Virus record (IMG/VR): IMGVR_UViG_3300020576_006644
Coordinates: 1 to 64,000 of that record
Direction: 5' to 3' (one strand)
Source: a virus
Taxonomy: Duplodnaviria > Caudoviricetes
DNA: 64,000 bases
This document shows positions 35,475 through 37,074 of this stretch, in pieces. The first letter of the stretch is position 1, and the number at the start of each line of letters is the position of its first letter. The position numbers were made by a program, and so were the translations under genes. The notes below the pieces were generated by a model. It did no database searches. It was not told the origin of the DNA and saw only the letters and a list, made by a program, of their open reading frames with translations.

Positions 35475-36419
35475 TTACCCGCGCGTGGTGCCCAGCGCCG
35501 CAGCCACGCGGCCCGGATCTACCATCTGCAGGAGCAGAGAGATTTTGTCAGTCACGGTCATTCCGCTAGAGAACTCTCGGGCCACCTCGGGGAAGTAGTC
35601 GATGCACAGCGCCACGAGATCTGAATCCCTGACCTGCTCAAGTCGCCTGCGAAGGGCAGGGCGGTCCAACCTAGCTATCGGGGCTGGCACCGGCGAAGGA
35701 TTGTCACCCGCGGGCTGCGCAAACGCCTCAGCCACGGGCTCAATAAAAAGCCGCTCAGCCGCAGCCGCCTTCTCGACGTGGCTTGCTTGCGCAAAGCTGG
35801 CCTCCAGGCGCCGCCACTGCACCGACACCTCGGGCTCCGCCAGCTCCTTGGCCGCCCGCGCCGGGTCGCTGACCGCGTAGGCTGGGATCAGGCTCCGCGG
35901 GCCGTGGGCCAGCCACAGGATGCGGCTGTTGCCGCGCTCCACCCAGATGCCGGACCAGTCAGCCCCGGTCACACCGTCGACCAGCTTGCCGTCATAGTCG
36001 TCGAGCACGTTCCCGGTGATCTGACACCGGGGCAGCTTAGCGGTCGACGAGGAGATGGCGGCCGGCTGCACCACCAAAAGCCCCTTCCAGGTCGAGCGCT
36101 GGGCGGGCCGCTCCTTGAGGTCCTTGACGAGCGCCCGCGTCTCCGCCAGATCCGGCTGGCCGTTGCGCAGGACCACCCACGGCATCCCGCGGACGATCCG
36201 GCTCACCGCTGCGCGGGCGTCGGAGTCACCGGCCAGTGCCCGCTCCACCTCGTCGGCCTTGGCACCGCCGCCCTTGCACTCGGCGATGATGGTGGCGGCG
36301 CGCCCGATGGGGATGCCGAGCGCCTCCCCCAGGTCCTTGGCGCCGACGTGCGCCGCGCCCTCCGGGGTCCAGCCCTGCTTCTCCCACGCCTCTTTCTCTT
36401 TTTCGTTCAGGTCGAGCAT
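35475..36419 (-). CDS. hypothetical protein with C-terminal EAD-like helical domain
   Basis: LRRRLEQVRDSDLVALCIDYFPEVAREFSSGMTVTDKISLLL; AAGGAG RBS. Confidence 0.6.
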   Translation of the reverse strand: MLDLNEKEKEAWEKQGWTPEGAAHVGAKDLGEALGIPIGRAATIIAECKGGGAKADEVERALAGDSDARAAVSRIVRGMPWVVLRNGQPDLAETRALVKDLKERPAQRSTWKGLLVVQPAAISSSTAKLPRCQITGNVLDDYDGKLVDGVTGADWSGIWVERGNSRILWLAHGPRSLIPAYAVSDPARAAKELAEPEVSVQWRRLEASFAQASHVEKAAAAERLFIEPVAEAFAQPAGDNPSPVPAPIARLDRPALRRRLEQVRDSDLVALCIDYFPEVAREFSSGMTVTDKISLLLQMVDPGRVAAALGTTRG

Positions 36420-36449: not shown

Positions 36450-36527
36450 CCCTTGGATTGGAGCGCCATGCCATACCCGGCCAAGCCTCGCCGGGCCGTA
36501 CGTAACCCAACAGCAGCCCACCTCAAC
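36450..36527 (-). ncRNA. orphan GGY-NN pentamer array 4
   Basis: Minus strand: 12 in-phase triplets (9 GGY), then TCC AA TCCAAGGG; directly downstream of TTGCGC-17-TAGGTA. Confidence 0.7.
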
Positions 36528-36558
36528 GATCTCTACCTACGCCGGGTGCAAGTAGCGC

Positions 36559-36580
36559 GCAATACCAGACGTTTGTTCAG
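36559..36580. promoter_or_regulatory. 22-bp operator repeat copy 9
   Basis: GCAATA-CCAGAC-GTTT-GTTCAG; contains the TGA of 36577-37074. Confidence 0.78.
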
Positions 36581-37074
36581 CGCGGAGCACGCTCCCCGAC
36601 CTCATCGACGGTCCACCGCGGGGCCTTGAGCGAACTGCCCTTAGCAAGGCGCACGATCAGAAACCTGTACGGGTGCATCTCGACGGCGATCTTGAGCTTC
36701 GCCCAGCTGTCGTCGCGGAGGAAACCCTTGACCTCGTGAAATTCGATGATACCAGCGACGGTGACGACCCTAAAATCGGGGACGTAGAACGTGGAGTCGG
36801 CGAGTCGCAGGTGCTCAGGGTGTGCGTCTACGCGCCGAAACTCGCCGATGCGCTGCCGCGCCTTCAGGTGCTCAAAGTACGCGGCCTCGGTCTTGTTCAG
36901 CTTCGAGGGGCGCTCGTAGGCGATCACAGGGGGCGCCTGCATGATCTCAGCGAGCGGTGCCGGCTCCTGCTTTCGCTGGGTAGGGCAGGGGCTGTGGACC
37001 GCCGCTCCGCTCAGCATCACCGTGCTGTCCCCGGTCTTGAACGGCTGACCGCACAGCCCGCAATGCGTGTTCAC
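36577..37074 (-). CDS. PD-(D/E)XK nuclease (DUF1064-like)
   Basis: NKTEAAY..FYVPDF..EFHEVKG. Confidence 0.75.
   Translation of the reverse strand: MNTHCGLCGQPFKTGDSTVMLSGAAVHSPCPTQRKQEPAPLAEIMQAPPVIAYERPSKLNKTEAAYFEHLKARQRIGEFRRVDAHPEHLRLADSTFYVPDFRVVTVAGIIEFHEVKGFLRDDSWAKLKIAVEMHPYRFLIVRLAKGSSLKAPRWTVDEVGERAPR

What the first reader, a model, noticed from the sequence alone, without database searches (positions are those of the whole stretch)
36450..36580. Orphan GGY-NN array 13 kb away, under an operator-linked promoter
The minus strand reads GGT GG GCT GC TGT TG GGT TA CGT AC GGC CC GGC GA GGC TT GGC CG GGT AT GGC AT GGC GC TCC AA TCCAAGGG, with the same 3' tag as arrays 1-3. It starts just after TTGCGC-17-TAGGTA next to operator copy 9, which supports the GGY strand being the RNA. 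Its decoded target is GCx ATx ATx CGx AAx TCx GGx GTx TAx CAx GCx CCx (A-I/M-I/M-R-K/N-S-G-V-Y-Q/H-A-P if in codon register). I found no convincing match in this window by eye, so it may be a trans-acting guide against the host or another element.
Basis: partly seen in the sequence, partly recalled or inferred. Interest (0 to 1): 0.72.

Follow-up and report, generated by a model that had tools for sequence, protein, structure and literature searches.

The report
Remote VIPR guide RNA against rival resolvase
The five-base repeat is a real guide-RNA gene of the phage's VIPR system (a CRISPR-like phage weapon published in 2026), and its code spells the catalytic motif of a rival version of the DNA-resolvase gene next door, so it is a new example of a known system, not a new one.

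Summary
Array 4 (36450-36527, minus strand) is one of only three strong GGY-NN arrays in this complete 112.6-kb phage genome, and all three end in TCCAAGGG. The system is already in print as VIPR (Vipr protein plus vrRNA, one-base-skip code; bioRxiv 2026). The 22554 protein is a Vipr homologue: a profile gives E 1e-12 to the solved SUSP1 Vipr, and the predicted fold is RAMP.

New here is the target. Read in guide sense, two bases in three, the array spells (D/E)-G-A-W-Y-T-P-D-F-R-I-I-A. That is the conserved catalytic segment of DUF1064-type Holliday-junction resolvases, the family of the gene directly upstream (36577-37074).
- One clade of metagenomic DUF1064 proteins (about 41% identical to the phage's own) must match 20-23 of 24 guide positions whatever codons they use.
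- Shuffled guides reach at most 19.
- The phage's own copy (STFYVPDFRVVT) matches 14 of 24, and its close relatives 14-17.

The array follows a 22-nt element present 12 times in the window, always on the gene strand.

Target DNA could not be fetched, so the match is shown only at protein level. Expression and silencing are inferred. This scan has already reported guides lying beside their own mismatched gene copy in other phages.

The parts
36559..36580 (-). 22-nt conserved promoter-associated element (CTGAACAAACGTCTGGTATTGC), overlapping the stop codon of the resolvase gene
   Evidence: 12 copies in the window, all on the minus strand, against 0.01 expected; contexts listed
36534..36562 (-). 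Putative promoter TTGCGC-17-TAGGTA. The same TTGCGN-17/18-TAGnnn layout follows other copies of the element
   Evidence: Sequence; aligned contexts; fails the strict sigma-70 consensus scan, so it is inferred
36463..36527 (-). Guide part of vrRNA 4: 13 pentamers with NN = GA GG GC TG TA AC CC GA TT CG AT AT GC
   Evidence: It spells (D/E)GAWYTPDFRIIA and matches a DUF1064 clade at 20-23 of 24 positions
36450..36462 (-). 3' tail TCCAA-TCCAAGGG, shared with arrays 1-3 and followed by UUUUAUU
   Evidence: All four ATCCAAGG sites in the genome lie at array ends; alignment
36577..37074 (-). The phage's own DUF1064 / Holliday-junction-resolvase-like gene, directly upstream of the array
   Evidence: phrog_190 E 1e-13 and weak Pfam DUF1064; homologues carry PF06356 or are annotated DUF1064
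36761..36795 (-). The phage's own, mismatched copy of the target site (STFYVPDFRVVT, in frame): 14 of 24 guide positions. Its Arg codon is AGG
35475..36419 (-). 314-aa ORF whose 5' leader holds the array. It has its own AAGGAG ribosome-binding site, and the gene is rare among relatives
22554..23171 (+). vipr gene (RAMP protein that should bind the array)
   Evidence: Single sequence E 7.6e-6 and profile E 1.1e-12 to PDB 36pp 'SUSP1 Vipr protein', with R143 and the G-loop GDFRP conserved; model pLDDT 86.5 matches Csm3/Cas7 RAMPs
22307..22384 (+). Array 1 with the same tail, a TTGACA-18-TAGTAT promoter and a 14-bp intrinsic terminator. It fixes the polarity of the arrays
23188..23290 (+). Array 3 with the same tail. 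Its guide spells the rival version of the adjacent wedge gene

Best explanation
Array 4 is a vrRNA gene of this phage's VIPR system, placed 13.3 kb from vipr. It is probably transcribed on the minus strand from a promoter that belongs to a 12-copy family of conserved elements. The RNA would be about 80 nt of GGY-NN repeats plus the shared tail, made either as a short RNA or as the processed leader of the 314-aa gene's mRNA. Vipr protomers would bind one GGY each and present the NN pairs. By the published one-base-skip rule these pair with the template strand of a DUF1064 resolvase gene, across the codons for (D/E)GAWYTPDFRIIA, which include the PD of the PD-(D/E)xK active site. A distinct clade of such genes in uncultured elements fits; the phage's own copy next door does not (10 mismatches). 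The likely effect is transcriptional silencing of a competitor's resolvase during co-infection, while the phage's own mismatched gene stays active. Shown: the array, the tail, the Vipr homology, and the statistical match to the family and clade at protein level. Inferred: transcription, Vipr loading, silencing, and that the target elements meet this phage in one cell.
For: The code and system are in print. In 79 IMG/VR loci fetched only as resolvase homologues, all three 18/24 hits and 9 of the 12 17/24 hits fall in frame on the xTxYTPDFxVIx motif. At protein level, counting the minimum and maximum over synonymous codons, P0197 and P0196 score 22-23/24, P0188 21-23, and the P0023 cluster 20-22. 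In 1000 shuffled guides the mean is 16 and the maximum 19. All 15 tree rows that are guaranteed at least 20/24 form one clade with support 100, separate from the phage's own clade. The extra 5' unit GA matches the preceding E/D. P0197 aligns with the phage's own protein over its full length at 41% identity, including the N-terminal Cys motif. The best hit in the phage's own genome is 17/24, and the homologous site scores 14/24. Array 3 obeys the same rule on the neighbouring wedge gene: 25-27/34 against rival versions, 21-24 against the phage's own.
Against: No target DNA was seen. Gapped patterns with 16-24 fixed bases found no match of 80% or more in IMG/VR, GTDB genomes or JGI metagenomes. 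Three 5' units have imperfect GGY. No terminator follows the tail, and the promoter is weak by sigma-70 consensus. The tail shows no predicted structure comparable to the SUSP1 pseudoknot. The hosts of the target elements are unknown, so co-occurrence with this phage is not shown.
Confidence: 0.75

Rival explanations
1. Array 4 is a decaying leftover of a former VIPR site and no longer acts as a guide.
For: Three of the 5' units have degenerate GGY and the tail unit is duplicated. There is no terminator. Contig lengths suggest that in two relatives vipr and the resolvase gene share one short contig (3,539 and 10,935 bp), so vipr may once have sat here.
Against: GGY conformity equals that of array 3. 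The tail and the upstream 22-nt element are intact. The guide still spells natural DUF1064 versions at 22-23 of 24 positions, which drift would erode quickly.
Confidence: 0.12
2. The array is mainly a cis-acting Vipr-binding leader that controls expression of the downstream 314-aa gene, in the way array 2 may control vipr.
For: The array lies in the 5' leader, 30 nt from the downstream ribosome-binding site. In arrays 2 and 3 the tail overlaps ribosome-binding sites.
Against: A purely structural binding site has no need for NN pairs that spell a gene motif, yet they do (about 9 sd above the shuffles). The downstream gene has its own AAGGAG site well clear of the tail.
Confidence: 0.08
3. The repeat is a chance G-rich periodic tract or a coding artefact.
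For: The genome is high in G+C, and an overlapping 94-aa ORF is listed.
Against: Array 4 scores above all 40 surrogates, shares the tail with the other arrays, and lies between genes.
Confidence: 0.01

Closest known systems
VIPR systems (Vipr protein plus vrRNA), described for Escherichia phage SUSP1 and a Pseudomonas fulva prophage: bioRxiv 10.64898/2026.04.26.720920 and 10.64898/2026.04.26.720927
   Same: GGY/NN pentamer tract of 9-16 units with a constant 3' tail. A small RAMP protein with a G-loop. The target is read two bases in three, in codon register, in a gene of a competing mobile element. No self-target reaches 80%.
   Different: The Vipr is only distantly related to the SUSP1 protein (profile E 1e-12). 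The conserved tail is short (ATCCAAGGG) with no predicted pseudoknot. No vap gene is evident. The VIPR type was not assigned. The guide lies 13 kb from vipr, inside an mRNA leader.
Solo (orphan) vrRNAs of satellites and VIPR-null phages: bioRxiv 10.64898/2026.10.15.759431
   Same: A stand-alone vrRNA gene outside the vipr locus, aimed at a competitor.
   Different: That paper calls an array solo only if no vipr lies within 20 kb. Here the phage has vipr 13.3 kb away. The published solo guides target vipr, vrRNAs, satellites or host repeats; this one targets a resolvase. The words allele and resolvase do not occur in either paper searched, and the uses of 'adjacent' shown concern other matters, so neither describes a guide beside its own resistant gene copy.
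Class 1 CRISPR crRNA with a Cas7 backbone
   Same: A RAMP filament on a guide RNA, with periodic flipped bases; the fold matches Csm3.
   Different: Five-base period with three bases hidden per unit. No repeat-spacer array, no cas1/cas2, and phage-encoded.

Membership tests
VIPR vrRNA | Tandem GGY-NN (YNNGG) pentamers, at least 4 units and typically 9-16 | tested here: met
   12-13 units, 9 with perfect GGY, and the third base always a pyrimidine. Array 4 scores above all 40 surrogates.
VIPR vrRNA | Constant 3' tail shared by the vrRNAs of one system | tested here: met
   ATCCAAGG(G/A) ends all four arrays, and these are its only four sites in the genome.
VIPR vrRNA | Structured (pseudoknot) tail, as in the SUSP1 clade | tested here: inconclusive
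   No stable fold was predicted (z +0.85). The paper describes the pseudoknot for the SUSP1 clade only.
VIPR vrRNA | A Vipr protein available in the same genome | tested here: met
   The only PDB hit is the SUSP1 Vipr, E 1.1e-12 over the full length, with R143 and GDFRP conserved. The fold is RAMP.
VIPR vrRNA | A natural target fitting the one-base-skip rule at 80% or more of NN positions, in codon register | tested here: met
   Met at protein level only: a DUF1064 clade is guaranteed 20-23 of 24 positions whatever codons it uses, against a null maximum of 19. Target DNA could not be fetched.
VIPR vrRNA | No self-target at 80% or more | tested here: met
   The genome maximum is 17/24, and the phage's own resolvase site scores 14/24.
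VIPR vrRNA | Made as a small RNA of about 100 nt that co-purifies with Vipr | not testable with these tools
   Only a predicted promoter is available; no terminator was found.
VIPR locus | An accessory vap gene beside vipr | not tested
   vipr is flanked by arrays and baseplate genes. No candidate vap was examined.
Solo vrRNA as defined in 10.64898/2026.10.15.759431 | [quoted passage not shown] | tested here: not met
   vipr lies 13.3 kb away on the same genome. 'Remote vrRNA of a VIPR-positive phage' is the better description.
DUF1064 (PF06356) resolvase-like nuclease (the gene upstream) | Match to the family model, and a YxPDF...E-x-K-G motif | tested here: met
   The Pfam score is below the cut-off (19.4 against 24.7 bits), but phrog_190 gives E 1e-13. 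Homologues carry PF06356. The PDF and EVKG motifs are invariant.

The most novel reading that the evidence does not exclude
Each VIPR guide in this phage group is genetically linked to a resistant version of the essential gene that it silences in co-infecting relatives: resolvase here, wedge protein at array 3. Guide plus immune gene copy would then act as a poison-antidote, gene-drive-like module, and the vipr cassette itself may move between such sites, since in two relatives it appears to sit next to the resolvase gene.
Probability: 0.3. Interest if true: 0.65.

Novelty: new member of a known kind. Interest (0 to 1): 0.4.

Why it matters
It extends VIPR from the enterobacterial and Pseudomonas examples to a large high-GC uncultured phage. 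It names a new class of target: the catalytic motif of a Holliday-junction resolvase, where escape mutations are costly. It also adds a case of a guide sitting beside the phage's own mismatched copy of the target gene. That linkage is not described in the two of the three preprints whose text was searched for it. It would explain how such guides spread and how the phage avoids silencing itself.

Tried and rejected
- **Rfam:** no family in the window.
- **Self-targeting:** nothing above background in the 112.6-kb genome. The top hit, 17/24 at genome position 66015 in a 340-aa gene, is chance level, and that gene has no relatives in IMG/VR.
- **Exact gapped patterns:** patterns with 24, 21, 18 and 16 fixed bases found no match of 80% or more in IMG/VR, GTDB genomes or JGI metagenomes.
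- **Close relatives' DNA:** not obtainable.
  - No match in GenBank phages by blastn.
  - IMG/VR has only a relative whose baseplate J protein is 42% identical, and it lacks a DUF1064 gene.
  - The metagenome scan with the SbcC-like protein found nothing.
  - The genome search draws no relatives for a virus record.
- **GenBank phages and PLSDB plasmids:** they hold only homologues under 50% identical to the target clade.
- **Array 1:**
- **Downstream genes and vipr:** PADLOC found no defence family for vipr, the resolvase, the 123-aa gene, or the downstream 314-aa and 335-aa genes. The ESM Atlas gave only a weak EAD7-like C-terminus for the 314-aa protein.
- **Host:** not identified.

Full report
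**What is there**

The window is the first 64 kb of a complete 112,623-bp virus record with direct terminal repeats. It is a high-GC tailed phage with baseplate genes. Array 4 lies in the 157-nt gap between two minus-strand genes: a resolvase-like gene (36577-37074) and a 314-aa ORF (35475-36419).

On the minus strand the gap reads as pentamers: (GTT.ga) GGT.gg GCT.gc TGT.tg GGT.ta CGT.ac GGC.cc GGC.ga GGC.tt GGC.cg GGT.at GGC.at GGC.gc, then TCC.aa TCC.aa GGG. The periodicity is not chance.
- GGYNN x4 occurs 11 times in the window against 0.7 expected.
- A caller run over the whole genome gives three outliers, scoring 7.8, 7.3 and 4.5 (array 4). The largest score in 40 Markov surrogates is 3.5.
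- All four ATCCAAGG sites in the genome lie at the 3' ends of arrays 1-4.

**What kind of thing it is**

A literature search shows that this is the VIPR system. A small RAMP protein, Vipr, polymerises on a vrRNA made of 9-16 GGY/NN repeats plus a 3' tail. The NN pairs bind DNA while skipping every third base, mostly the wobble positions of genes in competing phages, and this represses transcription. Solo vrRNAs are also in print.

The 205-aa protein at 22554 is a Vipr.
- Its only significant PDB match is 'SUSP1 Vipr protein' (36pp): E 7.6e-6 for the single sequence and 1.1e-12 over the full length for a 40-sequence profile. The thumb arginine and the G-loop GDFRP (GDWRP in SUSP1) are conserved.
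- An AlphaFold model (pLDDT 86.5) matches Csm3/Cas7 RAMPs.

**Polarity and expression**

Array 1 has a TTGACA-18-TAGTAT promoter and a 14-bp intrinsic terminator on the GGY strand. This fixes the GGY strand as the RNA strand.

Array 4 points the same way as its neighbouring genes. It follows a 22-nt element, CTGAACAWACGTYNNGGATTGC, that occurs 12 times in the window, always on the minus strand, against 0.01 expected. The end of that element supplies a TTGCGN box, followed 17-18 nt later by TAGnnn.

The pair TTGCGC/TAGGTA fails a strict sigma-70 scan, and no terminator follows the tail. Transcription is therefore inferred, and the RNA may be the processed leader of the 314-aa gene's mRNA. The phage has no S24 repressor or tyrosine integrase, so 'operator' is unproven.

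**The target**

No site in the phage's own genome exceeds background (best 17/24). To look for relatives I had fetched 79 IMG/VR loci holding homologues of the upstream gene. When these were scanned with the guide, all three 18/24 hits and 9 of the 12 17/24 hits fell in frame on the motif xTxYTPDFxVIx of that gene, out of 1.76 million positions scored.

In guide sense the array spells (D/E)-G-A-(W/C)-Y-T-P-(D/E)-(F/L)-R-(I/M)-(I/M)-A. This is the PD segment of the PD-(D/E)xK-type DUF1064 nuclease.

Two protein searches gave 279 family members. I scored each by the minimum and maximum match possible over synonymous codons.

| Protein | Peptide at the site | Match (of 24) |
|---|---|---|
| P0197, P0196 | E GAWYTPDFRVIA | 22-23 |
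| P0188 | E GSWYTPDFRIIA | 21-23 |
| P0023 cluster (ten members from JGI, ENA and Logan) | E GSWYTPDFRVIA | 20-22 |

All of these exceed the 80% criterion used in the papers, whatever codons they use.

On a quick maximum-likelihood tree, the 15 rows guaranteed at least 20/24 form one clade (support 100). The phage's own clade is separate (support 99). P0197 aligns with the phage's own protein end to end at 41% identity, including the N-terminal Cys motif.

**Self-immunity**

The phage's own site (36761-36795, STFYVPDFRVVT) matches 14 of 24 positions. It carries Val in place of the family's usual Thr and uses an AGG arginine codon. Relatives that are 74-94% identical carry STFY[IV]PDFR.. and can match at most 16-17.

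**Same rule at another array**

Array 3, read antisense, spells ..PWGGVTTIS.VEVY. Rival versions of the wedge gene (269 aa, one of them on a 33.4-kb contig with no Vipr on record) match 25-27 of 34 positions; the phage's own copy matches 21-24.

**Limits**

The host, the expression of the RNA, Vipr loading and silencing are all untested.

**A lead**

Proteins that are neighbours in this phage share 'longest contig' lengths in relatives. For example, the resolvase and the 123-aa gene share 1932, 1830 and 1237 bp. By the same logic, Vipr P0280 and resolvase P0001 share 3,539 bp, and Vipr P0282 and resolvase P0004 share 10,935 bp. That is shorter than the 14.5 kb that separates the two genes here. 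In some relatives vipr may therefore sit at the resolvase site.

**Verdict**

This is a genuine guide RNA of a known system, with a newly identified target and a notable link to the phage's own resistant gene copy. Earlier notes of this scan report the same 'guide beside its own mismatched gene' pattern in several other phages.

Noticed in passing
window 1827-59458, minus strand (12 sites); further copies at genome positions 68350, 75970 and 110179: A 22-nt element, CTGAACAWACGTYNNGGATTGC, containing a GAAC-N4-GTTC-like half-palindrome and followed by TAGnnn 17-18 nt after its TTGC end. It occurs 12 times in the window, all on one strand. It is probably a phage promoter class or a regulator site. 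No S24 repressor or integrase gene is present in the phage.
   Followed up: partly
relatives' contigs of 3,539 bp (P0280 with P0001) and 10,935 bp (P0282 with P0004): Equal 'longest contig' lengths suggest that in two relatives vipr and the resolvase gene lie on one short contig, much closer together than the 14.5 kb seen here. The vipr cassette may occupy different sites in sister phages.
   Followed up: partly
window 35475-36419 (-): The 314-aa gene downstream of array 4 has only one other cluster member (a 118-aa fragment), while the neighbouring resolvase has about 18. The slot after the array therefore looks variable. Only a weak EAD7-like C-terminus was found.
   Followed up: partly
window 22307-22316, 23188-23197, 36518-36537: Arrays 1, 3 and 4 all begin with GGYAG followed by (G/A)GTGG. 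In array 4 the two are separated by an in-phase 10-nt insert. This may be a 5' handle or a start-site motif.
   Followed up: no
window 22538-22553 and 23282-23300: The shared tail CCAAGG(A/G) doubles as, or abuts, the ribosome-binding sites of vipr and of the wedge gene. Vipr binding could therefore also control the translation of those genes.
   Followed up: no
window 23301-24131 (+) against P0438 and P0447-P0450: Relatives carry a 269-aa wedge protein with GLGPWGGVTTISLVEVY, where this phage has GISPFGGVVTISILECY. Array 3 matches the relatives' version better: 25-27 of 34 positions against 21-24.
   Followed up: partly
L083 6901-8394 (genome positions 66901-68394): The phage encodes an adenylosuccinate synthetase (PurA) homologue, PF00709 E 6e-57, next to a DnaJ-kinase-like ORF.
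   Followed up: no
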